64,000 nucleotides of DNA from Rhynchopus sp. YZ270_cl-10 (taxonomy: Eukaryota): positions 2,418,001 to 2,482,000 of the forward strand of contig OZ037833.1 in assembly GCA_964035575.1 (NCBI GenBank). Reading direction: 5' to 3'. Below the pieces are notes generated by a model that saw only the letters and a program-made list of their open reading frames with translations, searched no databases and had not been told where the DNA came from. Positions within the stretch are counted from its first letter, which is position 1. The number at the start of each line of letters is the position of its first letter. The position numbers and the translations under genes are program-made. Below, one piece after another: positions 5,624 through 59,226 of the stretch.

Positions 5624-5683
5624 ACAAGGGGCATTTTCAGGTCTGAAAACCCAAATTCAGATGAAATTGTGGTGTTTTGACTG

Positions 5684-6486
5684 GGAACAGGTAGTGCCGC
5701 AGGCGCACGGTACCCAACTTTTTTCTTTTTATTTTTCCCTTTTTTCTGCTTTCTTTTGATTGCACGAGCCGATTGCTCTCCACGGTGGGGTCACATGTGT
5801 GCGCAAAAACACTCTAAAGTACTCTTACTCTGAACGATGAGATTCCTCTGGTTTTAGTAAGGAACCCCCTGTTTGCAAAAAGTGCGTAAATTTCCTGTGG
5901 CTTTTTCCCGCCAAGAGGTCGTTTTGTTGCATTTCCGAACCAATCCCGGATTGTGGTGGGGGATGTACGGAAAAATGGACAAAAATGCAGCGACTTAAAA
6001 TTTGACAAAACATGAGCCCATACTCGTAAACAAGGGTTATTTTCAGGTCTGAAAACCCAACGTACTGAAGAGCTATCGGTAATGTAGTGATGGCGGTGGG
6101 GTTTCAGTGACCACAGAGAAGAGTGAGAAAACCCAGGACGGTTATGGCCTCGGAGGGGGTGTGCCCCATGGCGTCCTAATCAATCTTTATCCGTGAGGGA
6201 GGGGGGATCATCCTCAGGGGGGATGTGGTGCCGTACTCAAAATAAAATGAACTGTACATAAGTACATCGTGTTTAAACATAAAGGAGGGTAGGAACAGGT
6301 AGCGCCGCAGGCGCACGGTACCCAACTTTTTTCTTTTTTTCTTTTCCCTCTTCTCTGCTTTCTTTTGATCGCGCGAGTCGATTGCTCTCCACGGTGGGGT
6401 CACATGTGTGTGTGAAAACACTCTAAAGTACCCTTACTATGAAATATGAGATTCTCTGGTTTTCTTAAGGAACCCCCGGTTTGCAA
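5684..6486 (+). repeat. Local direct duplication (about 5684-5880 versus 6292-6486; 5925-6060 also matches 4710-4820 plus 5624-5655)
   Basis: ggaacaggtag.gccgcaggcgcacggtacccaac...gattgctctccacggtggggtcacatgtgtg...aaggaacccc repeated. Confidence 0.75.
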
Positions 6487-12422: not shown

Positions 12423-14424
12423 ATGCTTCGTGGTGTGTGCTCCGCTATGCAGCGTCGGGCTGCGTCGAACTACGTGGTGCCTGGGGTGACCCCTGACGCG
12501 AGGAGAGCGAGTCTGAAGCAGAAGATTAAGGACCAAGGCTTTGTGCGCGCAATGGAAGCGCACAGCGGTCTGTCCGGTGTTATTGTGGAGCACGCACGGG
12601 GCGCAAACGGCGAGCGTTTCGACGCAACCTGGAGCAGCTCCTTGACAAGCAGCACAACATGCGGGAAGCCCGACATCGAGACCGTCGATACCACCGCACG
12701 TCTCCGCATTTGCGACGAAGTGCTCGACGTCACCTCCCTCCCAATGATCTACGATGGTGACACCGGAGGCCACGCTGAGATCTTCCACTTCACCGTGAAG
12801 AGCCTTGAGCGTCTCGGAGTCTCTATGTGCATTATTGAGGACAAAAGCGGGCTCAAGCAAAACTCTCTCTTCGGAACCGAGCGTGCCCAGCAGCTGACCC
12901 CTATCGATGAGTTTTCGGAGAAGATTGCGCGTGGTAAGGCGGCGCAGGTGACAGATGACTTCATGATCATTGCACGTCTTGAGGCGCTCATCGCTGACCT
13001 CGGTCACGAAGAAGCCATCAAGCGCGCAAAGGCCTTCATCGATGCTGGTGCCGACGGAGTTATGATTCACTCCAAGAAGTCCGACGGAGCAGAGATCATG
13101 AAGTTCCTTGATGAGTACAACACCTTCCGTGGGGACAAGATGGCCGTTGTTGTGCCAACTACCGTATGTTCATTTTTGATTATTTTTTTTGGCTATTGTT
13201 CGAGGGTCCATAGAGTATGTTACACACACACAATGAAACAGTACAACACCTTCACGGAGAAGGAGCTCCACGAGGCTGGAGCGCAGGTTATCATCCACGC
13301 GAACCAGCTGATCAGAACCGCGTACCCTGCGATGATGGGCTGTGCAGAGTCGGTATGTTCCCTTTCGCATGAAACAAAAAAATGATGCGGGTCGAGATGT
13401 TTGTGTCAATGTCTTGTAAGTGGATCAATGTGAACACCGCAGTCATAATAGTGTAGTGTAATTGTCGAAGAGTCCAACAATTTCTTCTGGCGTGGGAACT
13501 TGAAAGAGTAACTTCAGTTTTTCTTTGTGTTTTTGACTTAGTAGAGAGTCAACGTTGTCAGATTGTCCTTGTGTCACAACAACTGTCGGGTTGCTCAGCC
13601 CGTACGTGTCATCTTCGTCGCCAACATCCGAAGCAATTTTCCTCTCCAGCCTTCGCATGGTGCCTTCAAGGGACGTCACCGTACCTGAAGTTCGACAGCT
13701 CACTCAAACAAATAAACATGAGTCCGTCCACGACGGGGTAATTCGCCAGTTCAGCCATTTCCCGGATCACGTCCCGCATTTGGCTCCCTTCGGAGTTCCC
13801 CCCGCTCAGGTCGTACCTAAGGTGTCGGCACACACTGTCGAAGACACCGCTGGTCTGGGGTTGCATGACATCGCGCAAACACTCAGCCATACCCTTGAGG
13901 TCGTGCAGGGGGGGGCTGACGAAGTGAGCGTTTGGGGCTACTCCTGCGAGGAAAGAAGGAAAGCCGGCATCCGACATCTCTTGCAAGGAGAGGTGGGGAA
14001 AGCGGTGCGTCATGAGCAGCCACTGCGACCTTGGGATGGCGCACATGGTACATTTTGGGGACTATTTGTTTCTACAGTTTGCCACCTAAAGCAACAGCAA
14101 CAACAATAATAGCCCTCGGGCAATATTGAGTCCAGCTCCTAGCAGGTAATTGTCGACACAAAAAAATGCGGTTTTTTGTACCTTCATTTACAAAATGAGA
14201 ACTGTCTTGTCTATAACCAAAGTTTGGCTGGGACGGTACATCATGTACATTGCAAGGTGTCCCCTTAGGTAAGCTCAGTGAGAAGAGAAATTTCATTAAA
14301 AACTGATCAAAAATACATCATAATTCTACAGATTCTGACCCACTCGCGTAGCAAGGAAGCCGACAGCAACTGCCTCTCGGTCAAGCAGATCCTCAACCTG
14401 ATCGACGATGGTGCCCGCAAGTAA
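12423..14424 (+). CDS. pepM: Phosphoenolpyruvate mutase (PEP phosphomutase), 3 exons: 12423-13163, 13242-13352, 14332-14424 (314 aa)
   Basis: EDKSGLKQNS matches the PepM EDK-x5-NS signature; MEAH, DGDTGG and IIARLEALI also present. Removing two phase-0 GTATGT...CAG introns restores VVVPTT|YNT and AES|ILTHSRSKEADSNCLSVKQILNLI, the usual PepM C-terminus. Confidence 0.93.
13164..13241 (+). other. Spliceosomal intron 1 of pepM (78 nt, in frame, no stop)
   Basis: Donor gtatgttc, acceptor aaacag; read-through inserts non-homologous VCSFLIIFFG... into the conserved VPTTY motif. Confidence 0.85.
13353..14331 (+). other. Spliceosomal intron 2 of pepM (979 nt)
   Basis: Donor gtatgttc, acceptor tctacag; the downstream exon supplies the missing C-terminal helix. 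Confidence 0.85.
13443..14046 (-). pseudogene. Coding-like antisense insert inside pepM intron 2 (two overlapping minus-strand ORFs, apparent frameshift)
   Basis: GC-balanced, homopolymer-poor block; ORFs 14046-13666 (126 aa) and 13703-13443 (86 aa) overlap in different frames; no family recognised. Confidence 0.4.
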
Positions 14425-23874: not shown

Positions 23875-25008
23875 AGAGAGCACCAACTATTCAACTTCAC
23901 CCCTTTCTTTTACCTACAAAAGCGTAGCTAAAAGGAGAAATAGTTTCCTCCGATACGGTCGCCCATCACCCCCTCCAACAGGGTAATTGAGCAATCAACG
24001 AAAAAAAAAAAAAAAAAATCTTTTTTTCCCTTTTACCTTACCCTATCAGAGTTACCTATTTCTTCTCCTCACGTAGAAGATGCTGCGGCAAACGCGGAGG
24101 CGTTTGTCTATTGAGGCCCTCTTTGTCGTCCGGCCCTAATCTACAGAGACATGAAATTCTATTGTGGGGTAAGATGCACGCAAATCCCCCCTTTTCCCCC
24201 ATACACATTTTTACCAATCAGTTATGGGTCCGTTTTGTTTTGTATTTTTTTATTGTGGAAAAAAATGTGTCTCAATTTGCTTGTTTCGCATTTCCACAGG
24301 GTGGGTATTGTTGCATCTACACCAGATATTTTTTTCCTCGGGAAAATGGCGGCCCAAAGAAAGAAGAAAATAATTGGACGCCAAGTTTCTTGGATTACTG
24401 TATCCCGAATAACATGCGTTGTGACAAGGAAACGAACTCCTGGCAACAGGAGTGTGGGACACCTTTGATAACGCTTTGTGGAAAATATCTGTATGCATAA
24501 TAAAGTCGCTCAAAACCGATTCCAGGGGGGTTCTGGGCACCTGTCGGGGCTCAAATGGTGTAGAACCCGAAAAAATGGCCGTGGAACTTTTGAGGGGGGG
24601 GTTAAAAAAGCGACCCATATTCATCTATCAACTTTTTCTCTTTGTATTTTTTTGTCTTTTCCTCAGGGAAGAGAGAGAGAGAGAGAGGGAGGATGTGGTT
24701 GTCTATTGTGGTTGTCTTACCAAAAAAATTTTTTGAATGCAAAAAGGCGCGTTCATCTCTTCAACTCCCCCTTTTTTTTTTGGGTGCACAAAAAGGAAAC
24801 AGCTTTTTGTTGATTTGTTACTTTCACAATCTGCGTGCGGACCCCTTGCATAATATCCGTACGTTGGTCAAAATTCTGATAGGAAAGAAAAGAAAAGACA
24901 TTGATTGGGTGATTCCCGAAGATGAGGAAAAATAAAGTGGCTGTTGTCAGGAAACCTGACAGTTTTTTATTGATAGGTGTTTGCACTATCAGCTTCACTT
25001 TTTTATAT

Positions 25009-28157: not shown

Positions 28158-28192
28158 AAGGTGACTAAGCACGAGAGGCTTAGGTTCATCTT
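28158..28192 (+). repeat. Type copy of dispersed hairpin family A (aaggtgactaagc-acgagag-gcttaggttcatctt); 20 or more copies in the window
   Basis: Copies at about 2128, 11426, 20499, 20829, 27228, 27541, 28158, 28895, 29950, 30414, 31558, 32025, 34337, 39075, 40602, 44199, 45298, 49843, 52325, 53036, 57518, 61547, 61628. Confidence 0.9.
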
Positions 28193-41811: not shown

Positions 41812-43098
41812 ATGGTGTTGCAGCTAGAGGCGGAGGGTGATAATGTTATGTACTGTTCTGCGATAAGCACTGCACCGCCCACCCCTACCACACGGTTACG
41901 CAAGGCGGAGGAGGGGGTATTTGAGTCCTCCTCTGGATCGCAGTCTTCTTCTGGCTCTTCTGAGCCTTCTTCTCCTCCTCAGATTCCTCAGGTGCAGAGT
42001 ATTGAGGAATTTTGCGCGCTTCTGAAGGATTGGGAGGCACAAAACTACTATGACATAAAAACGAAATATTCCAAGGCAATTGACGGCGTACAAACCCCTC
42101 CATTGGAAACACCAGAGGACTCCTTGGAGGATTGGGAATTCCGTACATTTGCCTTTTTTATTGCGTTTTTTAAGAGGTGGTATGCATTTTACCCTTCCTT
42201 CAAAAAGCAAGATGGATTAGAATTTACCCGCAGATTCGCATGGTTATACCACCAAAACCCGGCAGGGTTGCAGTTTGTTACTACATTTCCTGGGGTAGAG
42301 ATTTGCCGGCAATTTGTAACGTTAAATGGAATGAAAATGGATGATCCGGCCTCAAAATCTGTAGCAGAATCTTGGATGGCGGAGATTGGGGAGAGAATGA
42401 AGGATTTTATTGTCCCTGAGGTAGGTTTTCGGAATTTCAATGAGTTCTTTGCGAGGAAGATTAAACCGGAGGCGAGGCCAATCAGTCGGGCAGACGATCC
42501 GGCTATATTGTGTTCCCCAGCAGATTCTATTGTGAATATGGTTGTGAACGATCTTACCCTGCACAAAAGCGACATTCCGGTCAAAACCGTTGAGCTTTCT
42601 TTGTACAACCTGCTCAGTGGATCTGACTATGCTGCACGCTTTGTCGGAGGCTCGGCAATGTCGTGTATTCTAATGCCCGATGACTACCACCGTTTTCATG
42701 CTCCAGTTGCAGGGAAGGTAGTTGCCGCGACTGATGATATTGCAGGAGGGCTCTTCGAATTTCCGGATCTACCACAATTTATGAACAAAGGCAATGTTGC
42801 AGGTGGACAAGATTGTTCAGCGTTTGAACGGTTCAGGAGGGGCTATGTCATCATCGAAACAGAGAAATTTGGGTATGTCGGGATGGTGCCTGTTGGGTTG
42901 ACCTCTGTTGGTAGTGTGGTCTTGACAGAAAAGTTTCGGGACATCGGAGAAGGTGTGCCTATCACGAAAGGAGAAGAAATTGGGTACTTCCAATACGGCG
43001 GGAGTCTGTGCATTCTCCTCTTCGAAAAGGGTGTCTTCCCGTCCGTGAGAATACCCCAGGGGCAGATGCTCGGATCGCTCATTGAGAAGACAGATTAA
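41812..43098 (+). CDS. Phosphatidylserine decarboxylase family proenzyme, paralog 1
   Basis: FNEFFARK, SPAD, DYHRFHAP and GYFQYGGS (pyruvoyl self-cleavage site). Confidence 0.88.
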   Translation: MVLQLEAEGDNVMYCSAISTAPPTPTTRLRKAEEGVFESSSGSQSSSGSSEPSSPPQIPQVQSIEEFCALLKDWEAQNYYDIKTKYSKAIDGVQTPPLETPEDSLEDWEFRTFAFFIAFFKRWYAFYPSFKKQDGLEFTRRFAWLYHQNPAGLQFVTTFPGVEICRQFVTLNGMKMDDPASKSVAESWMAEIGERMKDFIVPEVGFRNFNEFFARKIKPEARPISRADDPAILCSPADSIVNMVVNDLTLHKSDIPVKTVELSLYNLLSGSDYAARFVGGSAMSCILMPDDYHRFHAPVAGKVVAATDDIAGGLFEFPDLPQFMNKGNVAGGQDCSAFERFRRGYVIIETEKFGYVGMVPVGLTSVGSVVLTEKFRDIGEGVPITKGEEIGYFQYGGSLCILLFEKGVFPSVRIPQGQMLGSLIEKTD

Positions 43099-43557
43099 AA
43101 AGATTTTTTTTTATACATTTTACCGTGCTGATTAATATTGGATAAATTTAGACTTTACGGGGGGAAAAAATGGACCTTTTAAGGAGCGCTTCGGTCCATC
43201 GAAGCCCCTCATAGGTTCAGCAAACTTCCCGTAATATCTTCTTTTTGTACAATACTATTATAAGCACAGTATTGTACGCGTGAACGATAAAAACCAGACT
43301 AGAATGATGCTATGAAACTATAAAACTACCCTTTTTTTCATCCTTTAAATAATTGTTGCTTCGACTCAGATTGATTTTAGTGGTAAAAAAAAACGCCTTT
43401 TTTTCTTGAGTTGAGGACGTCAGAATATTATTTTTTGTCTATTTCTTCAACAACAAAAGCCCGTCAGACAACGTTGTGTGTATGTGTTCTCAATTGACCC
43501 TACCTTCTTGGTAATGGGGTTTTTTTTGTTCCAGCGCGATACTGATAAGAGGTAAAT

Positions 43558-43587
43558 ATGTGTGTGCACGAGAGGCACATTCATCTT
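43558..43587 (+). repeat. Type copy of hairpin family B (atgtgtgtgc-acgagag-gcacattcatctt)
   Basis: Copies at about 6, 731, 31495, 43558, 45470, 45875, 52042, 53838. Confidence 0.8.
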
Positions 43588-45071
43588 TGCAAAACCTTGG
43601 CTGCGAGATTTTGTTGAGAATAGAAATTCAGACACACCTACCTTAACCTGCTCTTGTATCCTTTCCCCCTCTTCTGGTATTTGGTTTATAGTTTCATGGT
43701 GTCCTAAGCAGTCTGCGTTTTTGAAGTTGTGTTTGCAAAAAAAAGCTTCATTTTTTTTTTTCTCTCGAATTTAAAAAAGTCCTTGTACCTTCTCTTTGGA
43801 AAGGATATGGATCGATTTGTCCCCATTATAATCCCTGATTTTTTTTTGAAATCTCGACATCTATTTTTCACAAATGCAAAAATAATTTTTGACCCACATG
43901 AAAAACTAATTAATTTTAGTAACGAAAAATGAGTCTCAGCAACAGAGAGCCCCTTTCTCTCAAGGCTCGCCTTCGTTACTGTACTAAATTTTTTTTTTTA
44001 TATCTACAAGCGTTAACTTAAAGGAGAAACAGTTTCCTCCGATACGGTCGCCAATCACCCCTTGGGTAATTGAGCGCAGTCAACAAAAATAACCTTTTTT
44101 CCTTTTTAGTTACCCATCAGAGTGCCGTTTTTTTTCTCTTTCCGACAAAGAATAATGGATACTTCCTCATGGAAGACAATGGGCCGTTTTTTTTTATCAA
44201 GGTGACTAAGCAAATGAGGCTTAGATTCATCTTACAAACCTTTCTTTTTTACATAACGACTGCAAGGTGACTAAGCGAGAGAGTTTGTGTACCTTCAGCA
44301 ACACAAAAAGCGCAAAAATAAGATACACTCATTTTTCTAAGCTTAGCCTGACATGTGGCAAACAAGAAAACATTGCAACAAGTTGGCGACTATTAAATAT
44401 CACCAACATGCACCTTTGTTCATCCAAGATAAAAAAAACAAAAGAAACAAACAGATGTAAGCAATCAAGACAGCGCTTCTGCATAACAAATGATAGAGTC
44501 GATGTCGATAGCTAACTTTTATATTTTACTTCGTGCCTGATAGACAAGCAATGGCGAGTATGGGCAGCCAACCCATTCCGACCAAGGGCAAGCTTGGGCG
44601 ATGAACCCATTAAGACCCACAGGGCGAGCCGGGATATATACCCGAGCCGACCCTGCCCCCAACCCCCAACCCCCTGCCGAGCCGAGCCGAGCCGAGCGAG
44701 TGTGCCGAGCCGAGCCGAGCAGAAAAGACTTGATCGACCAGAGTTACAAAGTTTCTTCATAAAAAAAGCTAAAAAAATGGTTGAAGATTAAAATCTACTA
44801 ACAACCTGCAAACCACCTGTGTCACTATTATGCTGACTATCGACCCACGTGGCGAGTCAGTAGTGGCGTTATATTTGACCCTTTTTTTAACAAAGTACCC
44901 TGCTATATGCAGAGTAACTGCCTTGGATGAGGTGAGCTACGATCATCCGAAAATATAAAACAAGTTTTTTTTGAACATGATCCACTTTTATTTTTGCAAT
45001 TTTGATTTTTTCATTCTTTTACAATGTAGGTTTCGAAAACTGTCTGGGCCTTGAGCGACAGCGGAACACTA

Positions 45072-45162
45072 ACTACAAGTCCACAGAGGGTCATGCACTG
45101 ATGAAGTCCACCTCTGTTTACAACTAATGTATGCGTTTAGGACTGAAACATGGACTTGTGGT
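45072..45162 (+). ncRNA. Candidate hammerhead ribozyme, non-circularly permuted
   Basis: CTGATGA 45098-104 and GAAA 45145-148; stem II agtcc/ggact; stem III atgt/acat; GUA cleavage triplet 45129-131; stem I atgca/tgcgt; extra helices cagagg/cctctg and actacaagtcc/ggacttgtggt. Confidence 0.7.
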
Positions 45163-46975
45163 ACAGATGTACCACCCTACAAAAACTTTTGAATATGCAT
45201 ATTTACAAAAAAACAAAAACAAAACAAAAAGGATCCAAAAATACAACAAAAAAGATTGATGAATAACCAATGTTCAAAACATTAAGTAATCTAATCAGAC
45301 TAAGCGAGAGAGGCTTAGGGTCATCTTACAAAGAAAAAATTCTTTCTGTTTCTCTTCTTTCTTCCCCAAATCTAACTGGTGTTTCCCTCCCCCTCTCCCA
45401 TTGATATCCCCACACTTTTTTCCCCCAGAGAATGTGACATTGTTTTTTTTTCAAAATGTGTGTGTGTGTGTGTGCACGCGAGGCACACTTCATTTTACAA
45501 TTTTTTTAAAAGTTAATTTTCAGACGTCCAGCAAACGGTGGTGTAAAAAAAAAACCCACCAATTTTTTTTGACTCCCTCGACTTCACCAACTTTTTTTTT
45601 CCGAACCAACGTTTTGTTGGACGTCTGTACTTTCATTAACACCCTGGTTTGTCCCTCCCCTCATATCTCTCTCCCCTCTCAATTAAGCTTGTTTGAGCAG
45701 CTTTGCTGCGTATCTGGGGGGTAGGCTTGTAGATACAAAAGGCCTCCCTCCTTCCCCTAACATTTGGTTGACTGAACACAGAGACGCAGGTGCATCGTAC
45801 CAACCTTTTTAGTGTTGGATCTACCAAATCTCCTTTCCGTATTTTTATAATTACGGCATTCAGACAGCTTTTTTAAGATGTGTATGCACGAGAGGCATGC
45901 TCATCTCACAAAGTACATTATTTGCCTTCTCTTTCTGAAGAGGAAGGATTGGTTTTTGTCGATAATCAAGGAATCTTGTATTACCTGCGGATGCATAGGA
46001 GCTGTTCGATGCCCCATGTGCACCAGTGGCTACTGCAAACTAGAGTCTTCATTGTGTAGACAGCCTTCTTAACCGTTTTGTTCAGCATCGTATTTTTAAG
46101 GAAACCAAGAAATACCAATGTATTTTTCGACCTTCTGTCGAAATTATCACAGTATATTATACTATAGTAGTACAGTTGCCACTAGTTGGCTCGGATCACT
46201 TTACCCCCTTTTCTTAAACATTATTGTGTTGCAAAATAAAGGGGGGACCCGTCGATTATTTACCTATTTTGGTGTGTTCCGGGGTATCGGAAAATACAAA
46301 TTTTCACCAATCTTCACCAATCTTCACAAGTTTTCACAAGTTTTCACAACATAATTTTTGGCCATTTTTTTGTGAAGAATTGTGAAGAGTTGTGAATAGT
46401 TGTGAAGAGTTGTGAATTGAAATGAAAATTTGGATGAAAAAAACACAGATGTTGTGAAGATTTGTGAAGAGTTGTGAACAGTTGTGAAGAGTTGTGAATT
46501 GGAGGGAAAAAAAGGGGGGTGTTTTTTTCCAGGGTTTTTGCAGGACTGGTCAGGTAAAGTGTGCTGTGCAGAGGGCTAGCTAGCGTGGGTCTGTGAGTCA
46601 AGCTGGCCGTACCACCCCACCCCCTGTGCGGAGGAGGACGACGGAAGTCCGCGGCGTGTTCGTTTGTTGCCTTTTTTTTTTTCAACATGTTCACAACTCT
46701 CAAGAAAGTAGCGTACCGTGCGCCTGCGACGCAGCTAAAAATTACTAGCGGTAGCCCACAGCTCTACCCGAAATGTTGCGTACCGTGGCTTCGCTAGAAA
46801 AGTTTTGTACCAGTGGCACTACCACTTGTTTCCCTGTTTTTTGTACCGTTTTACTCAAAACACAGCTGGGCGCAACTAGCACCATACTCACCTGAACTGT
46901 GCCTATATTAGGCACAATTTCAGCACACTTTCAGCACAAGTACACACACGTACACGTCGGGGCCATATGTAGTGT

Positions 46976-47594
46976 AGTACTGTACTGTACTGTACTGTAC
47001 TGTACTGTACTGTACTGTACTGTACTGTACTGTACTGTACTGTACTGTACTGTACTGTACTGTACTGTACTGTACTGTACTGTACTGTACTGTACTGTAC
47101 TGTACTGTACTGTACTGTACTGTACTGTACTGTACTGTACTGTACTGTACTGTACTGTACTGTACTGTACTGTACTGTGTACTGTGTACTGTGTACTGTG
47201 TACTGTGTACTGTGTACTGTGTACTGTGTACTGTGTACTGTGTACTGTGTACTGTGTACTGTGTACTGTGTACTGTGTACTGTGTACTGTGTACTGTGTA
47301 CTGTGTACTGTGTACTGTGTACTGTGTACTGTGTACTGTGTACTGTGTACTGTGTACTGTGTACTGTGTACTGTGTACTGTGTACTGTGTACTGTGTACT
47401 GTGTACTGTGTACTGTGTACTGTGTACTGTGTACTGTGTACTGTGTACTGTGTACTGTGTACTGTGTACTGTGTACTGTGTACTGTGTACTGTGTACTGT
47501 GTACTGTGTACTGTGTACTGTGTACTGTGTACTGTGTACTGTGTACTGTGTACTGTGTACTGTGTACTGTGTACTGTGTACTGTGTACTGTGTA
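46976..47594. repeat. Compound satellite: about 40x TGTAC followed by 59x TGTGTAC
   Basis: Perfect arrays with an abrupt switch at 47176. Confidence 0.97.
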
Positions 47595-48036
47595 AAAACC
47601 ATAGGGGGGACCCTATGGATTTCCGATGTCCGAGTTTGAGGACCAAAAATTCCATTAAAGCAAGAATTTTTAACTTTGGAGTATCTGTGGTACTCTCATA
47701 TTTTTTCCTAACTCGCACAAAATTTCTAAAAACGGTGTTAATAATCCCCACCAAAAAGGCGGATAAGACGAAAGGAGACGAAGTAACCGCCAAGGACTCA
47801 CCAGTGCGTCGATCCATAATGTGTGAGAGATGCAAAACAACCACCGCCATAATGGAATTAACCTGTAGGTTAACCTCACACAGGACAGTCTCGTCGCCCA
47901 CAAAGGTCAATAATACACTCCGGATTTTGGGGACAATTTTTGACCGAAATGGGCCGCCTATTAGTGACCGGGCTCATATTTTCCGAAATTTAAGAGGTCA
48001 TAAAATTGTCCAATTTTCAACGTCGGCCCCACCACT

Positions 48037-48723
48037 CATACTTGGACCGCCCGAAATATATTTCGGGCATTTCGGGCGGATTAGGGGCGGATTTCGGGCG
48101 ATTTTGTGCGCCCGAATTTGCCCGAAAACGCCCGAAATGCAGATTTCGGGCGGATTCGGGCGCTTTTTCCTTAGTGAAAACCGACTAGGTAGGTTTCTAT
48201 TCATTTTTGCAAAAAACTTTTTATATTTGGAAATATTTGATGTCAAATCTGTCAAAATAAGCAAGAATCGAAAACTTTTGTACACCTGAGTGCACTTTGG
48301 GAATCACCACCAAACACGGGTTTTCTGACTATCATGTGCTTATTCCCACCCAAAACACACTATGAACCGGGGTTTCACCATTTTTTCGTATTTCAAGGTG
48401 AATTTTTGTGAATTGTCGGGTCACAGGGTGGTTCTGACCCATTCTCGGGGTGTTTCGGACTTTTTGCTCAATTTTTTTTTCTTTGAACAAATTTTGTGCC
48501 AATCTTTCAAATAAAGCGTAAAATTTTTACACTGGTGGCATGCTTCCCAGCACACATAAGATACTCCAGTGCACCGATTGTGCGCCCGAATTCGCCCGAA
48601 TTACGTATAAATTCCCTTTAAAACGCCCGAAATATATTTCGGGCACATTTCGGGCGCTCGGGACCCGCGCCCGAAAAATCCGCCCGAATTCGCCCGAAAT
48701 TTTTTTCGGGCGGTCCAAGTATG
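48037..48723. mobile_element. Innermost TIR element with CCCGAA/TTCGGG subterminal repeats
   Basis: catacttggaccgcccgaaa / tttcgggcggtccaagtatg flanked by the direct repeat ACCACT. Confidence 0.8.
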
Positions 48724-51700
48724 ACCACTGCACGGGGATCCCAAAAATGCAATCCAAGTCAAAAAGTTGAAAAAAAAACACACCTAAAAACACATGGCCC
48801 AAGAATGGCCCAAAAGGGTCCAAATCGTCCCGTCAGCCGCACCATTTTAGGCACTTTTTGCACATAGAACCTCCTGTGTTGCCAACCAACGTCCTCCAAA
48901 AGGTGTCCTGTACCTACCTGGGTACCTGGGTGCCCAGGCACCACCCAGACTTCGCCAACTTCACAACTCTTCACAACTCTTCACAACTCTTCACAACTCT
49001 TCACAACTCTTCACAACTTTTCACAACTCTTCACAACTCTTCACATACACGTTTTTGTGAAAATTTGTGAAGAGTTGTGAAGAGTTGTGAAGAGTTGTGA
49101 ATTGAAATGAAAATTTGTATTTTTCGATACCCCGGAACACACCATATTTTAATATTTACCTTCGTGTATTATTTACCTTTTTAATGCCAAACATTGTATT
49201 ATTTACCTTTCGTGTATTATTTACCTTTTGAATTGGCATTTAATTAATTAATTTTCCGCCCCGCTTTTTTTGGGTGAAGTTCTGAGGCACTGGACGTGTC
49301 GCTGAAGCTCTCAACGTCCAGGTCCAGGCTCGCCACGCTTGCCTCGTCGAGGCCGACGACCATCTCGCAGCGGCCACGGCGCACCTCATCCCACTGGTGG
49401 TTCAGCTCTGCAAGGGTCGAGGCGTTCAACATGACGGCGAGAGGGGTTCCGGGGAGGGGGAAGGGCGGGGTGTGAAAATGTGTTGTGCAGTGAGTCGGGG
49501 GTCTAGTGGGTGTGCATCGAAAACAGGACCGTTTACCCGCAATAGGTCAAACCGTATATTATTTACCTTTTGAATTAATAAAGTCCAAATATTGTATTAT
49601 TTACCTTCCATGTATTATTTACCTTTCGCGTATTATTTACCTTTCGTGTAATATTTACCTTTTCAAAAGGTAAATAATCGACGGGGCCCCCCTTTAGGCG
49701 GTCGGCGCGATTGGGGAAAAAGCGAATCTGCTTTTTATTGTTTAGTAAGTGTTGAAACCGTGTCATGAATCTGATCTAGGGTTTTTGCCTGCGGCTTTGC
49801 GCACAAAACAAACGGTGTGTCCTATTTTTTATTGTCTTTCAGAAGGTGACTAAGCACAGCTTTTTTAGGATCATCTTGCCAACATTTTCTGTACTTCGTT
49901 GGCGCTCTACCAGGTATTTATTTATTTATTTATTTTTTAAAACTGAGGAGTGCTGTCGCAGCTCCACAAAGGAAAGCAGATATTTGAACGCAACCAAACG
50001 TGAGCCCTTCTGCATTCAGAAGCGCGTCCAATCGGTCGCAATATTTGCAAAAATTTTCCAATATATTTGATGCGGTTTCTCTCCGAAGACCTGGGTGATA
50101 TGAGAGTAGAGAGCCTCTTGGTGGATCGATTGTCCTCCTGGGGGTGCAATATACTTAACCCTTTATTCTCTGAGTGTTCTTTTTCACTTTTACATTGTTT
50201 TTTTGAAACCTTTTACCATTCCCTTTAGGGAACGGAGCATGCACGGTCCTAGAATCTCCACGAAAATGGAGTCGGCGGACTTAAAAGGAAGGTGTCTTCC
50301 TAAACGTGCACATTCATTGTTCAAGATTGTTTTTTCACCTCGTGGTTTAGGTATCAATCACTTTAGTGTTGTCTTTCGACTTCTCTCCAGGTTGCCTAGC
50401 CACAGCGGTGCACTATCAACTTCGCTTTTGTTTGATAGGGTGTCTGTGCCTGTGAGGCTAGCTCTGCATCAAGTTTTCTTTACGTTTAACCTTCGCAGCA
50501 CTCCAGGGGTTCGATGGCACATGGAGCGTCAACGTGCCTGTATCCCAGAGGCGTTTGTACTAGCCACTTCCCTTGTGTTGCTCTGATACGGTCAGCAGGT
50601 CATTGCACTTCCTAAAGGAGTGTTCCCCGTTGATACGTCAGGCCCAGGGGCTTCTTTTTGCATCTGAATTAAAAAAGCTTTAAACGTTTCGATTACGATT
50701 TTTGTTCAAAATGAAACCAGCATTTTATTCAAAACGAACGGTCCAATTCTTCTTTTGGATGTGTCCGTGTACTACCACCTTTGTCCACTACATTGCTGCG
50801 TTTTCCAGCAACCTAACTACAACTTGAACTCAATCATCTCTCCTCGCTCGCTCTCTCTCACTCTCTCTTTCTTTAATCACATCTTCATTGTGGAGACACC
50901 CGAGCATGCATCTCCCGATCTACACTACATTCCCCCCTCTTCACCTTGCGCACTGTGATTAGCAACCAACAAAGCAAGCCAACGTTTGATCTCAGGCAAC
51001 AAGCCTTTCCCCCCCTTTTGAAGCAGAGTTTGACTCCTATTTGGCTGCGTTCAACGAAAAGCACTGTCTTTACAGAGATCAGTTGGAGGTTATTGTTTGG
51101 TTTTATGCGTGCACACAAATGAGGGAGATGCATTTTTGAGTTCTTTTTTTTTTTTTTTTCAGTGGCAGTCAGGGTATAAGCTTGGATTTTGGATTTTTTC
51201 CAGAATTAGGTTTTGAAATTTTTTTTTTGGTGGGGTTATAGCAGGGTATTATATAGCCCCCCTAGCCCCCACCAAAAAGGTGGTTTTGTGTGAGGCAGTC
51301 ATTTTTTTCTGTGGGGGAAACGAAGCGAAAAATTTTCTCGGTATTTTGTGACCACGGCAAACCACCCCAACCCTGCGGAAAAGCCTCCCCTCCTCTGTGC
51401 AACCTTGGTAGCTTTCAGCCACTGGTGATCCGCAATCCGTAGTGGGTGTCAGCCTTATTGTCGGTAACCTCAATACATTTACAAGAAACGGTGGCCATGG
51501 CACCCAAAGGTTCCTGGCGAAGCCACGGTATGCAACATTTCTAAAATCGCGCTTTAAAATTGCACTATTTTACAGGCAAACAATGTCATGGGAAGGGTGT
51601 GAAAGCTTGCGCCGCAGGCGCACGGTACGCTACTTTTATTCTTTTCGCCACATCTTTTTTCTCACTCATAGTTGGGTTTTTCAAGCTCCGTCCGTCAAAT

Positions 51701-52416
51701 GGAGCTCAACGAACCCTTTTTTGCGGAGCAAAAAAGGAAAAATGGCGCCGCAGGCAAAAAAAATTTAAGGTACAGCCTGGATGGTGCGGTCAGCAACCCA
51801 GTTCCCAAGGGTACTGCGTACTCCCGTGGTTCAACCACGGTTCTTTCCCCCATATTTCCCCCCCCCCCCCCCCCCCCGAAATCCAAATCTATATATATTT
51901 TTTTTTTTTTCCCCGAAAAATTTCAGAATTAGGTTTTTGAACCTAATTCTGAGTACCAAGCTTATACCCTGGTGGCAGTGCCTGCGTCCCTGAGGCGTTT
52001 GTACTATCCTATACTATAACTTCACTTATTTCCTTGCCTGTTGATGCACATCTGCACAAGAGGTCTTATCTCCTGGTTTCTAATTTTTTTTTCTCTCGAA
52101 AGATACACCTGCAGATGGGGTATGTCCATCTCTCCAATTTTTCTTTGTTCTTCTTGCTATCTAGAGAGAGTGGTCTATAATCAAACAAAAATTATTTGTT
52201 CTTCTTCGATGGACCCCCAACCGGGTATTTTTCCATTTGTGATTTACGTGGTGTTGCGACATCTTACTTATTTTCTCGTTTTCCCTCAGGATCTGCTTTC
52301 AACGAAACGATCTTCTTTTCTCTTGGTGGCTAAGCATAAGACGCTTAGGATCATCTTACATTTTTTTCTATTTTGTTTTCTTCCCCACCCAAGCCCAAAA
52401 CCCCACTTTTTTTTCC

Positions 52417-52464: not shown

Positions 52465-54293
52465 CTTTTTGTTTTGTCTTTTTGCTTTTAATTGCTTTTT
52501 GTCACAATTCTCTGGTCCCCATTTGGATTTTTTTCCCTTCAAAAAGTGTAGTTATTAAAGAAACCCCTCTTGAAAGCCTGTCTATACCTCTCTCTCTCTT
52601 GGGGGTGAGAGTGTATCGTCTGTTCAGTGTGTATTTACCTCAGCTCATTTGTGTTTGTCCATCTTATTGAAAAGCGTGTTCACCTTCTTCCCTTAGTTGG
52701 TTGTATTGTGAGAATTGCCCATAATACATAATACATAATACACATCACAAAACAGCTGTATTGTGATGTGGGTTATGTATTTATGGGCAATTAACACAAT
52801 GCAGCGAACTACTCTCTCCTCCCCTTCCCCCGTCTGTTTTCGTTGGGTTACCAACGATTTCTAGTTATGTACTCTTCGTTCTAGTTATAGTTCTGGACTT
52901 CTCGTGATTTGTTTTATTCTATTTTTGAAAACCCCACCCCATCTGTTGCTCTTCACAATTAAAATACTCGGACTGTGGACGAACCCGGTTCTCCTTGTCT
53001 TTACCTGCCAAATGAATTCGTTCTTTTTTTTCTTCAAGGTGACTAGGCAAAAAGCTTAGGTTCATCTTATAAATTGTTCTTCTCGACTCCTGTTCTTCTT
53101 GTAACCGCGGGCCACCTTTTGGCCCCATTTCACAAAAAAAAATGGGAAAGTGACGCAGAATAATTCTAATAAATAACGCAGAAAAAAATATATTCATACA
53201 ACAAAAACCATAGATAGAGACGCATCAGGCTCAATTGTGTGTTTTTTTAATTAGAAAAATCACAAATTGTCATGCGCATTCTCTAGCTATGAAAAAGGTA
53301 CAAAAAATGTGGTTCTGTTCTTATCCCCGTTTTTTCGTTTTGTCATAATGATTAACGGGGGAAAAGAGCGTTTCAATGCAAAAATCGCAAAACGTAAAAA
53401 AGAAAACAAAGGGAGCACGCTGGAGGTACTGCTATATGGAGTTGCCACGTGGTATGACTTCTAAAGCACGCTGGTAATAGCATTTCCCCCCGGTAGATTC
53501 CAGTGAAACCAAATTGAAAAGAGAGCACTCATCTAATTCGGATGAGTTTTTTCAGTAGACACATATCAGATGGAACACGTGTTGCCAATCTGACTTCAGT
53601 TCGTACATACACAGAAAAGTAAGGATTCTTGCCAGCGGCTTTGCAAACTGAAACGCCCGATCTTTTTTCTTTGTTTTGTCTAAATACCACAGCTCTCTCC
53701 CCACAAAAGGGGCTTTTTGTCCTAACGAATGTCTATCCACACGCCAGTTTATGGCCCTCTTCTCCCTCTCTTCATTTTAAAAAAACACTTCGAATTTTTG
53801 TCCGAAAAATCTTTCGTAATGTCATGTGCATCTGTTCGATGTGCCCGCACGAGAGGCACATTTGATTCAGGTACAGTTTTCTTCAAATGACAAACTACGA
53901 GAGACTTTCGGTTTTATCGCACAAAACTTTCCTCTTTTTTATGGTGTTACATTACTCGTATATTTTGTTTTCTTCTATTTCTTGCATTTTCCTCCATCCT
54001 GAATGGGTTTGGGAGAAATGCTTCCAAGTGTGCCAGTGGACTTTTTAAAAAAAAGTTGGGGGTATTTTTTTGATTCCTTTTTACACGCCTGCATCACCTC
54101 TCTCTCTCTCTCCCCGCACATTAACAACTTCACTTTTGTAACCAGCCTTCTCCTTCCTCTTTCCCTTAGGCAACTTAATCACAGAGGCTTAGGTAGGGAC
54201 CATCCACACTGCCTTCTCTTTTCCCCTTCTTCCACACTGTCATCAACACCAACACCAACACCTGACAGAGCCACCACAACACTACCTACAACA

Positions 54294-55511: not shown

Positions 55512-56819
55512 ATGGGAGAATGCAACAGCAAGCCCGCGGATGGCAAGACAAACAAGCCCTCCACCAAGCCGGCACACCACACGAACGAGCCTATTGAATC
55601 CAAGGTGCCCGCTAAGATGCAGGCACTCAAACTCACCAGTCACGTTCCCAAATGCAGGGATTCGAGTAAGGCTGTGAGGGACGAACCCGAACTGCCTTTG
55701 GTGACAACAATTGAGGCGTTCCAGGCACTGCTGAAGTCATGGTACGACACGGACTACCACGGCTTCAAGACGAAGTTCACTGCCGCAATGGCAGCTGTCA
55801 CCACCCCACCGTTCCCCGCAGGGACCGACCCAAACAACACCGAGAACTGGAAGAACTCCGACTTCGCGCACCTCCAGGACTTCTTCAATCGGTGGTACGC
55901 CTTCTACCCTTCCTACTCTAAAGGGAACGGCTTGGAGTTCATCCAAAAATTCTCCTGGATCTATGTCAACAGCCCTGTTGGACTCAACTTTGTCACGACC
56001 TACCCAGGAACGGAGATGTGCAGACAATTTGTTTTCCTGAACGGCGCGAAGATGGATGACCCTGCAAGCGTCAAGATCGTCGAGCAATGGGAGTCTGAGA
56101 TTGGCGAGGAGGAGATGAGCAACTACATCATTCCCCCAGGTGGCTACGCCAACTTCAATGAGTTCTTCCGTCGTGAGCTGAAGCCTGGCAGGCGCCCTAC
56201 TGCGAACCCTATTGGGAACGACAAGCAGGAGTGGTTGGTCTCGCCTGCCGACGCCGTCCTCAACATGATTGACGACTCCCTCACCCTCAACGACAAAAAC
56301 ATTCTCGTCAAGACCCAGCAGATGAGCGTCAACCAGCTTCTCAACGGATCCAAATACGCGCCAGGCTTCGTCGGAGGCACAGCCCTCTCCTGCGTCCTGA
56401 TGCCCGACGTCTACCATAGGTACCACTCCCCCGCAAACGGGACCGTGGTGGAATCGGACCAGGACGTCATGGAGAACTACTTCGGCATCCCCGACTTCCC
56501 TGCCTTCCTGAACGAAGGGAACGTCGGGTACGGCGAGACGTACTCGATGTTTGAGAACTTCCGTCGTGGCTACCTTATCATCAAAACGGAGAAGTTTGGC
56601 AACATCGCAATGATTCCTGTCGGGCTGAACACAATCTCTTCAGTTATCTTCGGTGAAAAATTCAAAAAGGTCACCAGCGACAAACCCGTCGAAATCACAA
56701 AAGGAGAAGAAGTCGGCTACTTCCAATACGGCGGCAGTCTGTGCATTCTCCTCTTCGAAAAAAACAGATTCCCTGCGATTCGGGTGCTCCAAGGTGAGAC
56801 TATTGGGTACTCCAGCTAA
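55512..56819 (+). CDS. Phosphatidylserine decarboxylase family proenzyme, paralog 2, predicted N-acylated
   Basis: FNEFFRRE, SPAD, YHRYHSP, GYFQYGGS; collinear with 41812-43098; N-terminus MGECNSK fits myristoylation/palmitoylation. Confidence 0.9.
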   Translation: MGECNSKPADGKTNKPSTKPAHHTNEPIESKVPAKMQALKLTSHVPKCRDSSKAVRDEPELPLVTTIEAFQALLKSWYDTDYHGFKTKFTAAMAAVTTPPFPAGTDPNNTENWKNSDFAHLQDFFNRWYAFYPSYSKGNGLEFIQKFSWIYVNSPVGLNFVTTYPGTEMCRQFVFLNGAKMDDPASVKIVEQWESEIGEEEMSNYIIPPGGYANFNEFFRRELKPGRRPTANPIGNDKQEWLVSPADAVLNMIDDSLTLNDKNILVKTQQMSVNQLLNGSKYAPGFVGGTALSCVLMPDVYHRYHSPANGTVVESDQDVMENYFGIPDFPAFLNEGNVGYGETYSMFENFRRGYLIIKTEKFGNIAMIPVGLNTISSVIFGEKFKKVTSDKPVEITKGEEVGYFQYGGSLCILLFEKNRFPAIRVLQGETIGYSS

Positions 56820-59226
56820 AAAAGAGAGAAACTAAAGATTTTTTTTTTTTTGCTTTTTTTAAAAACGTGAAGGGGTTCGATGATTGTAATCGCTGAGAAA
56901 GATTGGGAGGGGTCATTAAAAAGGCTCTCTCGCGCAATTATTAACTGAATGAAAATGCGAAAGGTTTTCTTTCATTCTTTGATCAATTTATTGATTGCAT
57001 ATGATGAAAATATTCTTTGAGCCAAGAGAGAGGCCCGAAAACGGCAATGTCCGCATTCACCATGGGGTAGAGGAACCCTTTTTGACTGAGCCTCACCCCT
57101 TCCTACTCAGATGCCCTATTTTTTAATTTCAATTTTTTTTTTTTGTATATTTTCTACGCTTCCTTGTTTTGCATACCCAAAAAGGGTATCGCAATGCAGT
57201 ACAAAAAAAGAGGGGAAAAGTGTACTTGAGATGGTGCCAACCACACTATTCATGCCCTTCCCCCCTAAAAAAAGCATAGCATTTTGTTTTGCCCGAGTTT
57301 TGTGTATTTTGTGAGTTTCTTGTATTTTTTTTTTGCGCTTTTTTTTTGTTTGAGGAGTTAAAAACATAAAGCTAAAACCACCAAAAAGAAAGGGTGCATG
57401 TGTTGACCCTCTCACATACTTTCAATTCTGTGAATTGAAAGTATATGAATCTAATTTGTTTGGTAGTGATGGCGAATCCAACAGAGGCTCGGTAGTTTCA
57501 TATTCACCATTTGTTATAAGGTGACTAAGCACGAGAGGCTTAGGATCATCTTATAAACTTTTCTTTTTTTTAGTGTTGAAAATTCGATTCAATACTGGTG
57601 AATATACTTTAGTTTTTTTTTTTGTTCCACACAGTTTTCCCCCTCCATCAAGTACATTGTTAATAAAATTCAATCTCCTTGGGGGGCTTTTTTGATACCT
57701 TACAACCCCATGGTTTCGGAGTGCTCCGCAAACGTGTGTCTTTTACATCCCTTCATTTTTTTTTTTTTGTCGTTACCACCGTATGTTACCTCCACAGGCT
57801 ATACATGCACACTCGAAAACGTTGCCCCCAAAGAAAAAAGGCTTTGCTCTGGGATTGCGGTTTTGTTGTTAATCGTCCCTTCCCCCCCTTCTTCTGCTCG
57901 CCATTCAACGGAGGAGGGGCCGTCTAGGGTTATAAACTCTAGGTAATAGTGGTGTGGCTGGAAACAGTCTGTGCCAAAAACAGTACTAAAGTTACACTTT
58001 GGCCCAGCCACATCAAAAAAGAGATTTTTTTTTGGGGTATTTTTGTGTCTGGACAAAAGCCTATTTTTGATGCAGCTCTGCTGCTTTTTAAAAGCACAGA
58101 GCGGTTCGTCGTGGTGACATACATTTTTTTTTTCTCTTTCCCTTTCCCATCCACGCTTTTTTGTTTTTTGTTTTTGTTTTTGTTTTTTGGATATGACTCA
58201 AATAACCCCGTCCACACCCCAGCTGCTGAGTACATATTTGCAGAGTTTGGTTCCAGACTCTCCCAATCAACGCACTTCAATTTCTTTATATCGCCAGTTT
58301 CTATCTCTTTGCATTGCTGTTTATTCCTACCCCCATATTGTCTCCTTGTTGTATTCCTTCAGCACTCAATGGTCGTGCAGTGTATTTTGCCACTAGAATA
58401 CATCAGCATATATTTTGAGGAAGAGGGTAGGAGCTGGGGAAGGGGGTAAAAGTGTGTGCCAACGTTTTACAGATCCCCTTCTTTTTTGATTTTTTTACTC
58501 TTCATCGTTCACCCCTTTCCCCTCGATGCAAAAAAAAGTTTGTAAGTCACCAAACCCTTTAGGGATATTTGAGAACCCAATTCTTGGGTGATTGGCAATA
58601 CAAATAACAACAAAAAAATAATCGATGTCTAAGTGACTCACCAAGGTACTTAGGCGATTGGAAAAGAAGAAAAAATCGTGCGGACGTAACAATCTGCAAT
58701 AAAGGGCTTTATCCTACATAGCCACGACCCCCCCACAACCAACGACCTTTTCAAGGTGTGACTCAGCACCGGAGAGACTTAGATCCATTCTTACTCACAC
58801 CCCCTCCCCCTCCCTCTACCTTTTTAACTGATCCTTTGCTGTCTTTTTTTTCTGTTTTCTTAATCTCTGAGGATCCATTTTTTCCTTTTTAACAAAACAT
58901 GTAATTACAAAACGCGTTTACCCCACACAAAAAAAGTTCCTCCCTCCCCCAATCAATAGAATTTTCTTCTGCCACCTCATGAAATGGAGATATAAACAAA
59001 GCATTTTGAACACACCTTTGCGGTTCTAGGGACGAACCGCACTGCAGAGCCACCCCCTCACCAAACAGGTTGAGGTGTTGTGCGTTTCACCACAACCTGT
59101 CTCCCATGGGTTTTATCGTGTGATGAGTGTTACGTGCATGAGTTTCTATTTTCCCCTCCCAAAAAAAACCCCCCCTTCTACCAGGTGATTGTATACAAAC
59201 CACAAGAAAGGACAGAAACAGCATTA

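What the first reader, a model, noticed from the sequence alone, without database searches (positions are those of the whole stretch)
45072..45162. Hammerhead ribozyme core with a non-circularly permuted ('jumbled') strand order
Seen: every catalytic-core position is present. CUGAUGA (45098-104), A10.1-U11.1 opening stem II (agtcc 45105-109 / ggact 45140-144), GAAA (45145-148), stem III (atgt 45127-130 / acat 45148-151), cleavage triplet GUA (A17 = 45131), stem I (atgca 45093-97 / tgcgt 45132-136). The substrate strand lies INSIDE what would be loop II, so the order is [I-CUGAUGA-II] > [III-UH-I] > [II-GAAA-III]. Known: types I, II and III are circular permutations and none has this order; non-circular hammerhead permutations have been reported only rarely, and standard type I-III descriptors miss them. 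Two extra helices (cagagg/cctctg, 6 bp; actacaagtcc/ggacttgtggt, 11 bp) would staple the fold, and the 3-nt TTA linker joins the tips of stems I and II, which are neighbours in the active structure. A downstream hairpin gtggtac/gtaccac (45158-175) could compete with the closing stem. Inference: a self-cleaving RNA on the gene-sense strand, 2 kb after the PSD gene, that could cut the polycistronic transcript or mark a retroelement.
Basis: partly seen in the sequence, partly recalled or inferred. Interest (0 to 1): 0.9.

Follow-up and report, generated by a model that had tools for sequence, protein, structure and literature searches.

The report
Scrambled hammerhead ribozyme in kinetoplastid retroelement
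A jumping element that inserts at one fixed spot in a common repeat of this single-celled flagellate's genome carries, near its tail, a complete hammerhead RNA motif wired in a rare scrambled order; it likely cuts the element's own RNA, though cutting is untested.

Summary
Observation confirmed. 45072-45162 holds every hammerhead core position with stems I/II/III (5/5/4 bp) in block order C-S-G: type CSG of Eckert et al. 2023, published from two soil-metagenome sequences. It also has their I-II interaction helix (7 bp) and short linker, plus an extra 11-bp closing helix. Chance is excluded (0 CSG hits in 600 shuffles). New context: the host is a kinetoplastid, and the motif lies 135 nt from the 3' end of a 1,014-bp insertion (44284-45297) with an exact 15-bp target-site duplication. 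Contig depths suggest roughly 40-70 near-identical ribozyme copies. Four further left junctions and short tail-only copies sit at the same point of an abundant coding-strand hairpin repeat: a target-specific, 5'-truncating retroelement. The PSD gene link looks incidental. Not shown: cleavage, compensatory base changes, the element's reverse transcriptase and clade. Likely role: cutting element RNA out of read-through transcripts, as proposed for Penelope-like elements. This scan noted a type-CSG hammerhead once before on other DNA, and differently rewired ones in animal retroelements (unchecked notes). Verdict: new variant of a known, very rare kind.

The parts
44284..45297 (+). Retroelement copy, 1,014 bp, 5'-truncated; no reverse transcriptase or endonuclease frame recognised in this copy
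   Evidence: Bounded by an exact 15-bp duplication. Contig breaks at 44284 in three runs; depth about 12-16x single copy in two deep runs; one contig runs 343 nt further upstream into other sequence at depth 1337. No Pfam or protein match
44269..44283 (+). Left target-site duplication (15 bp)
   Evidence: Identical to 45298-45312; occurs only twice in the window; not extendable
45298..45312 (+). Right target-site duplication (15 bp)
44264..44283 (+). Left part of the interrupted host hairpin repeat (insertion target)
   Evidence: Same motif at 20 other sites of the window, 20 of 20 on the + strand; same left part precedes 4 further junctions
45298..45327 (+). Right part of the host hairpin repeat, followed by a pyrimidine-rich tract
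44964..45029 (+). Pyrimidine-rich tract ending in AG (45028-29) inside the element; possible trans-splice acceptor (inferred). Contig depth steps up about 3-fold near 44964
   Evidence: 68% pyrimidine, AG positions; depth 7.2 to 22.4 in one run, about 1,700 to 4,000-7,800 in two others
45072..45082 (+). Closing helix P0, 5' strand (not in the published CSG alignment)
   Evidence: 11 bp with 45152-62; inner pairs at probability 0.98-0.99
45083..45089 (+). Stem I-stem II interaction helix, 5' strand
   Evidence: 7 Watson-Crick bp with 45111-17; same place as in CSG-1/2
45093..45109 (+). Block C: stem I 5' strand, CUGAUGA core, stem II 5' strand
45111..45117 (+). Interaction helix, 3' strand
45127..45136 (+). 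Block S: stem III 5' strand, predicted cut after A45131, stem I 3' strand
   Evidence: cut position by analogy with PMC10085705
45137..45139 (+). 3-nt linker joining stem I to stem II
   Evidence: published descriptor allows 0-8 nt
45140..45151 (+). Block G: stem II 3' strand, GAAA, stem III 3' strand
45152..45162 (+). Closing helix P0, 3' strand; can also pair with the stem II 5' strand (7 bp), an inactive alternative
45158..45175 (+). Downstream hairpin competing with the outer end of P0
   Evidence: 7 bp, pair probabilities 0.09-0.40
45163..45297 (+). A-rich 3' tail of the element, with no poly(A) at the junction; constant 3' end
   Evidence: tail-only copies join the target at the same point (tables 5 and 5c)

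Best explanation
This is a hammerhead motif in type-CSG order, with a fifth closing helix, near the 3' end of a multicopy element that inserts at one fixed position of an abundant coding-strand hairpin repeat in a kinetoplastid genome; it likely self-cleaves after A45131 to process the element's RNA for retrotransposition. Shown: the motif and its pairings, the 15-bp target-site duplication, the shared target, variable left ends with a constant right end, and multicopy depth. Inferred: (1) insertion is by target-primed reverse transcription starting at the constant 3' end; (2) because the target repeat lies on the coding strand of a one-strand gene cluster, copies are transcribed by host read-through; (3) two hairpin loops (closed by the interaction helix and by stem III) pair with each other to form stems I and II, and P0 stacks on the short stem III and holds the fold; (4) where the 3' unit occurs twice on one transcript (terminal repeat or tandem copies), cuts would release unit-length RNA that may be joined into a circle and copied, as proposed for Penelope-like elements. 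P0 and stems I-III leave 25 base pairs across the cut, so the two pieces would stay together and could be re-joined or crossed by the polymerase.
For: Core, three stems and order; chance excluded. The interaction helix and short S-G linker sit where CSG-1/2 have them, and both of those cleave in vitro. TSD. Contig depth over 45059-45181 is 4,413 and 7,800 against single-copy flanks of about 105-107 in two runs of two studies, about 42x and 73x (rough, the tool warns that depth is no exact copy number). Four distinct further left junctions (45032, 45137, 45152, 45159) are each preceded by the target's left part, 11-15 nt past the same point (4 of 4 target-type junctions among 24 of 27 loose-end rows shown). 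Joints 44212>45285 and 44214>45287 show tail-only copies with both ends in the target. In a diverged variant (about 2 copies) the alignment breaks off at 45075 and 45159, and 4 of the 5 listed changes fall in unpaired linkers (16 of 75 positions; post-hoc p about 0.009), none in the core or stems I-III. An abundant second family (about 20-50x) changes the core only at the variable position 7. Three of the four junctions lie 5-27 nt 3' of the predicted cut and none in 45033-45131 (p about 0.02 if uniform): a weak hint of cut templates. Hammerheads lie in the terminal repeats of Penelope-like elements, with cutting and circularisation proposed (PMC4209133).
Against: No cleavage data. No compensatory base-pair change was seen: the main family is invariant; in the second family both stem I 5' (45093) and position 10.1 (45105, to U) change, and its 4 differences on the partner side were not displayed. 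The diverged variant breaks the terminal pair of the interaction helix (45117) and has 2 unlisted changes, probably in 45150-59. One single-copy variant seems to lack part of the core. A10.1-U11.1, a 4-bp stem III and a 17-nt linker fall outside the two published CSG descriptors seen. The nested minimum-energy fold sequesters the core, and the pseudoknot-ready state is 6.1 kcal/mol above the nested ensemble before stems I and II are counted. An internal 8-nt duplication allows a strand-swapped inactive fold. Published CSG ribozymes are slow, 0.004-0.03 per min. Most copies keep both sides of the cut, and no head-to-tail joint appears among the 15 of 70 joints shown, so step 4 is unsupported by direct data. 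No RT frame was found in this copy.
Confidence: 0.62

Rival explanations
1. The ribozyme is active but acts as a brake or switch. It nicks read-through element RNA once, 166 nt before the 3' end, so that cut RNA decays or yields only short insertions, while P0-clamped or misfolded RNA serves as template. No circle or tandem is involved.
For: Single cut position near the 3' end; 25 bp across the cut; strand-swap alternative; 3 of 4 junctions just 3' of the cut; no head-to-tail joint among those shown.
Against: The 3' unit is about 3-4.5x deeper than the body, which a terminal repeat would explain. Only 15 of 70 joints were shown.
Confidence: 0.17
2. The unit from about 44964 to 45297 is mainly a separate short non-autonomous element (SINE- or retrozyme-like) that borrows the 3' end of a longer partner. 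The fold is a conserved binding site or a slow, largely inactive relic rather than a working ribozyme.
For: Discrete depth step near 44964, with a ratio that differs between runs (2.8x, 3.1x, 4.6x); competing folds; A-U at 10.1-11.1 and U at 10.1 in the second family; one core-damaged copy.
Against: All catalytic positions are intact in the main family and the diverged variant; changes avoid the core and stems I-III. A short non-autonomous family and an active ribozyme are also compatible.
Confidence: 0.15
3. A host regulatory ribozyme that cuts the PSD 3' region of the polycistronic transcript.
For: On the coding strand, 2 kb after a PSD gene.
Against: It lies in a young multicopy insertion with a perfect TSD; the PSD paralogue at 55512-56819 has none; several target-type hairpins with pyrimidine tracts lie between the PSD stop and the element. 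A side effect on host RNA is still possible.
Confidence: 0.04
4. Chance arrangement of short motifs.
For: Very many windows are scanned; short stems; Rfam finds nothing.
Against: 0 CSG in 600 shuffles; about 1e-7 expected scan-wide with all five helices; 0 of 216 viral loci matching the core pattern and spacing had credible stems (4 reached 3/3/3 bp, each with four G.U).
Confidence: 0.01

Closest known systems
Type-CSG hammerhead ribozymes CSG-1 and CSG-2 (Eckert, Friedrich, Weinberg, Weinberg 2023, PMC10085705; read parts 1-6 of 8 of the main text and all 28 'CSG' places in the supplement)
   Same: [quoted passage not shown]
   Different: Unrelated stem sequences; A10.1-U11.1 instead of G-C; GUA instead of GUC; stem III 4 bp with an added 11-bp closing helix P0; 17-nt II-to-III linker. 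Published examples are two similar soil-metagenome DNA sequences with no known host or element; this one is in a eukaryote genome, multicopy, inside a mobile element.
Penelope-like elements with hammerheads in their terminal repeats (PMC4209133 and PMC6765202, passages; PMC8557442, passages and supplement hits)
   Same: Hammerhead on the sense strand near the 3' end; truncated copies; very short tail pieces; no poly(A) at the junction. Craig et al. note Naiad cores that fit no standard descriptor, some with the two core halves 35-50 nt apart (40 nt here).
   Different: Described PLE hammerheads are type I or minimal. No PLE was confirmed in 57 trypanosomatid genomes (PMC12278014, passages). 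No PLE-type RT, GIY-YIG domain or inverted/tandem arrangement could be seen here.
CRE/SLACS/CZAR site-specific RLE retrotransposons of kinetoplastids (PMC12278014, passages)
   Same: Kinetoplastid host, fixed insertion position in a repeated target, target-site duplications of variable length.
   Different: CRE elements target spliced-leader RNA genes and generally end in poly(A); this element targets a dispersed intergenic hairpin, has no poly(A) at the junction, and carries a hammerhead.
INGI/L1Tc retroposons with the Pr77 HDV-like ribozyme (PMC3185411, abstract; PMC12278014, passages) and R2 (PMC6765202, passages)
   Same: A self-cleaving ribozyme carried by a non-LTR element that is co-transcribed with host RNA.
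   Different: Those ribozymes are HDV-like and sit at the 5' end; this is a hammerhead 135 nt from the 3' end. No HDV-like Rfam match in the element, but its true 5' end is missing from this copy.

Membership tests
Type-CSG hammerhead ribozyme | Blocks C, S, G intact and in the order C-S-G | tested here: met
   definition
Type-CSG hammerhead ribozyme | Conserved core: CUGAnGA, GAAA, U16.1-A15.1 pair, H17 | tested here: met
Type-CSG hammerhead ribozyme | Stems I, II and III can pair | tested here: met
   5/5/4 bp, one G.U
Type-CSG hammerhead ribozyme | [quoted passage not shown] | tested here: met
   7 bp; 3 nt against the alignment
   A-U, 17 nt, 3 pairs; explains why such a search would miss it
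Type-CSG hammerhead ribozyme | Covariation in the stems | tested here: inconclusive
   Changes avoid core and stems I-III in one variant; partner strands of the second family not displayed
Type-CSG hammerhead ribozyme | Self-cleavage at the predicted site | not testable with these tools
   needs an in vitro assay
Non-LTR-type (target-primed) retroelement | Target-site duplication, variable 5' ends, constant 3' end, many copies | tested here: met
Non-LTR-type (target-primed) retroelement | Reverse transcriptase frame in the element or a partner | tested here: inconclusive
   None in this truncated copy; upstream part and genome not available
Penelope-like element | PLE-type RT and GIY-YIG endonuclease | not testable with these tools
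   coding part absent from the window
Penelope-like element | Hammerhead near the 3' end | tested here: met
   135 nt from the 3' end, though of a different order than those described
Penelope-like element | Tandem or inverted terminal-repeat arrangement | tested here: inconclusive
   3' unit over-represented about 3-4.5x; no head-to-tail joint among 15 of 70 shown; this copy has a single 3' unit
CRE/SLACS clade | Insertion in spliced-leader RNA genes | tested here: not met
   Target is a dispersed intergenic hairpin repeat; no Rfam match in the window
CRE/SLACS clade | Poly(A) 3' end | tested here: not met
   3' junction has no poly(A)
INGI clade | 5' Pr77 signature with HDV-like ribozyme | tested here: inconclusive
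   No match in this 5'-truncated copy; full 5' end unseen

The most novel reading that the evidence does not exclude
An undescribed clade of kinetoplastid retroelements homes into a genome-wide host RNA hairpin signal on the coding strand, rides polycistronic transcription, and replicates through an RNA ring or clamped nicked RNA made by a five-helix, non-circularly permuted hammerhead. It would be the first biological role for a type-CSG ribozyme and the first natural hammerhead in kinetoplastids.
Probability: 0.3. Interest if true: 0.88.

Novelty: new variant of a known kind. Interest (0 to 1): 0.72.

Why it matters
Type-CSG hammerheads rest on two similar metagenome sequences with no known host or function; their discoverers called the biological case weaker than for type SGC. 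This example is unrelated in stem sequence, adds a fifth helix that bears on the open geometric question of how the ends of stem III and the interaction helix meet, and lies in a young, multicopy mobile element of a eukaryote. That makes function testable: natural variants, insertion junctions and RNA ends can all be read in one genome. It also points to a target-specific retroelement outside the four clades reported for trypanosomatids and Bodo saltans, and to the long-open question of what a ribozyme does near the 3' end of a retroelement.

Tried and rejected
No whole genome was held, so paralogues could only be seen through contigs laid on the window. No RNA holder listed: no evidence either way on expression or cut ends. 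Rfam: 0 matches at gathering score in the window; 3 chance-level matches in 44200-45400. Relatives elsewhere: 0 in viral contigs with a family pattern; 87 metagenome loci matched a looser pattern, 6 of 87 had stems of 3 bp or more in any order, none convincing, and none resembled the element by BLAST; 216 viral loci matched generic CSG patterns, 0 credible; 0 in prokaryote genomes. No second ribozyme copy in the window. Coding remnant: 9 frames gave no Pfam match above cut-off; the 76-codon open frame at 44285-44512 gave 0 of 8 candidates among longer proteins and 2 hits among 1.84 billion representatives, both tandem-repeat proteins with summed weak stretches, rejected. The protein atlas gave no answer. 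A GC-rich stretch at 44555-44665 folds at z = -2.1, not taken as evidence. ViennaRNA cannot model the pseudoknotted state, so folding energies are only indicative. Literature: 'hammerhead+CSG+permut+ribozyme' from 2023 gave only PMC10085705; searches pairing hammerhead with kinetoplastid or Bodo, kinetoplastid with Penelope, hammerhead with HERO/RLE terms and one search listed no report of a natural kinetoplastid hammerhead or of this element (listings only). A 2026 preprint on free-living kinetoplastids had 0 occurrences of Penelope, ribozyme or transpos- in its main text (its supplements are closed). The library lacks most subscription papers.

Full report
1. The observation. The sequence at 45072-45162 is as described. 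It holds CUGAUGA (45098-104), GAAA (45145-48) and a GUA triplet (45129-31), with stem I (5 bp, one G.U), stem II (5 bp, opening A-U) and stem III (4 bp). Two further helices form: a 7-bp helix (45083-89/45111-17) and an 11-bp closing helix P0 (45072-82/45152-62). My descriptor for all six block orders gave one hit on both strands of the 64-kb window, this one. In 600 shuffles it gave 0 hits of this order and 8 of other orders at 4/4/4 bp, and 0 of any order at the real stringency. The composition-based expectation over 250,000 windows is about 0.07 for core and three stems, 2e-4 with the 7-bp helix and 1e-7 with P0 as well. Rfam misses it.

2. What the fold is. In the scheme of Eckert et al. 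2023 (PMC10085705; main text parts 1-6 of 8 read; supplement searched for 'CSG') the order C-S-G is type CSG. They found two similar CSG sequences in soil metagenome DNA; both cleaved at the predicted site, at 0.004 and 0.026 per min. [quoted passage not shown] The window's motif has both, with different stem sequences. It differs by A10.1-U11.1, a GUA site, a short stem III, a 17-nt linker and the extra helix P0, and so falls outside the two CSG search descriptors I saw. The authors state that none of their RNAs except one GCS candidate came from a known organism's genome. That A-U at 10.1-11.1 and GUA are tolerated, at lower rates, is recalled knowledge, not a call result. The fold can be read as two hairpin loops that pair with each other; P0 is contiguous with both the interaction helix and stem III, which fits the paper's remark that these two helix ends must come close in such ribozymes. 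Nested folding supports P0 and the interaction helix (pair probabilities up to 0.99 and 0.91) but prefers a core-sequestering fold; the pseudoknot-ready state lies 6.1 kcal/mol higher, before about 7 and 9.5 kcal/mol of stacking from stems I and II and unknown loop costs. An internal 8-nt duplication allows a strand-swapped inactive form.

3. The host. The window encodes KMP11, and 9 of 10 long reading frames lie on the + strand: a kinetoplastid gene cluster. Its KMP11 is 91-95% identical to mostly unnamed sequences and 84-85% to the named Perkinsela and Trypanosoma rangeli proteins, so a non-trypanosomatid kinetoplastid is likely (inference).

4. The motif is part of a mobile element. An exact 15-bp direct repeat (44269-83, 45298-312), found only twice in the window, brackets 1,014 bp. 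Removing the insert restores one copy of a repeat that occurs at 20 other sites in the window, 20 of 20 on the + strand with the strict pattern (a looser pattern gave 31 on + and 14 on -, several of the latter the reverse readings of the same near-palindromes). This repeat folds as a 13-bp hairpin with a G.U pair and a 2-nt bulge, more stably on the coding strand in 6 of 6 copies tested, and is usually followed by a U-rich tract. Public contigs laid on the region (contigs only; six runs in all from four coded studies, one of which may be the window's source) show single-copy flanks at depth about 105 in two deep runs, the element body at 12-16x, and the ribozyme at about 42x and 73x with no difference over 45059-45176. 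These ratios are rough. Contigs break at 44284, and one contig continues 343 nt upstream into other sequence at depth 1337, so this copy is 5'-truncated. Four further left junctions, at 45032, 45137, 45152 and 45159, are each preceded by the left part of the same target repeat, ending 11-15 nt past the same point (24 of 27 loose-end rows shown). Joints 44212>45285 and 44214>45287 carry 16-24 letters resembling the element's tail (compared by eye) between two target halves: very short copies with the same right end. Variable left ends, a fixed right end and a duplication of variable length are the marks of target-primed reverse transcription (established knowledge). All junctions seen have the same orientation, so copies lie on the coding strand.

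5. Natural variants. A variant at about 2 copies aligns only from 45075 to 45159. Its five listed changes are at 45110, 45117, 45119, 45125 and a 1-nt loss in the T run at 45136-38; four are in unpaired linkers, one breaks the last pair of the interaction helix, none touches the core or stems I-III (post-hoc p about 0.009). Two more changes were not listed and probably lie in 45150-59. A second family at about 20x and 51x changes 45093, core position 7, position 10.1 (to U) and 45110; its four differences on the partner side were not displayed, so compensation is neither shown nor excluded (I link the contig and the loose end by position and length). One single-copy variant seems to lack part of the core. 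Selection on the fold is therefore suggested, covariation not shown.

6. How it likely works. Copies on the coding strand are read through by the host polymerase (inferred). The fold would cut after A45131 (inferred from CSG-1/2). The puzzle is that the cut is 166 nt before the 3' end, while most copies keep both sides. For Penelope-like elements, whose hammerheads are similarly placed, cutting of tandem precursors and circularisation were proposed (PMC4209133, passages; PMC8557442, passages). The 3' unit here is about 3-4.5x deeper than the body, with a step near 44964, which fits a terminal repeat or a short partner family; no head-to-tail joint was among the 15 of 70 shown. Three of four junctions fall 5-27 nt after the cut and none in the 99 nt before it (p about 0.02 if uniform), but stalling at structure or microhomology could do the same. 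The 25 base pairs across the cut would hold the pieces together. A pyrimidine tract and AG just upstream (44964-45029) could also define an RNA by trans-splicing; untested. I put 0.62 on an active ribozyme that processes the element's template RNA, 0.17 on a brake or switch, 0.15 on a largely inactive fold in a short partner family, 0.04 on host-gene control.

7. Comparison and novelty. It meets every structural feature of type CSG tested here; cleavage is untested. The element works like a site-specific non-LTR retroelement, but its clade is open: no RT was found in this copy. It fails two CRE features (spliced-leader target, poly(A) end), and only four retroelement clades, none of them PLE, were confirmed in 57 trypanosomatids, with the same four in Bodo saltans (PMC12278014, passages). 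The known kinetoplastid retroelement ribozyme is HDV-like and at the 5' end (PMC3185411, abstract). Craig et al. mention Naiad hammerhead cores that fit no descriptor, some with halves 35-50 nt apart (18 labelled places in the supplement, 4 rows seen); I did not test those sequences. Searches listed no CSG paper after 2023 and no natural kinetoplastid hammerhead; the library lacks most subscription papers. No relative was found in metagenome, viral or prokaryote collections. Earlier unchecked notes of this scan report one CSG hammerhead in another genome and differently rewired hammerheads at the tails of Naiad and Hero elements; none matched this sequence or genome.

8. Verdict. A real, non-random type-CSG hammerhead variant in a young, target-specific kinetoplastid retroelement. 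New variant of a known, very rare kind; interest 0.72.

Noticed in passing
window, 20+ sites, e.g. 28158-28192, 44199-44233, 53036-53068, 57518-57552; second subtype 43555-43587, 45467-45500, 45875-45906: An abundant intergenic hairpin repeat found on the coding strand (20 of 20 strict matches), with a G.U pair, a 2-nt bulge and a U-rich tract behind it. Two subtypes share loop and 3' end but have different, each self-complementary, upper stems. Summed contig depth points to hundreds or thousands of copies. It may be an RNA-processing signal or an old short retroposon; it is the element's target.
   Followed up: partly
window 51170-51971: An 802-bp non-coding element with perfect 16-bp terminal inverted repeats and an 8-bp target-site duplication: a MITE of a DNA transposon (hAT- or Merlin-like by recalled TSD length). 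DNA transposons were not found in 57 trypanosomatids but Merlin is reported in Bodo saltans and Perkinsela.
   Followed up: partly
window 46237-49696: A 3.4-kb element with 32-bp terminal inverted repeats (30 of 32 alike), internal inverted arrays of a 10-bp unit and a 620-bp block of 5- and 7-bp microsatellite; probably a non-autonomous DNA transposon.
   Followed up: partly
window 41812-43098 and 55512-56819: Two divergent phosphatidylserine decarboxylase paralogues on either side of an 11-kb gene-poor, element-rich stretch and KMP11.
   Followed up: no
window 44555-44710: GC-rich structured stretch inside the element (z = -2.1), followed by short 5-bp tandem repeats; no Rfam match.
   Followed up: partly
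window 43994-44138 and 23904-24067: A diverged repeat pair (74% over 167 bp), another dispersed family next to the insertion.
   Followed up: no
window 12423-13385: A PEP mutase family gene, which may point to phosphonate biosynthesis.
   Followed up: no
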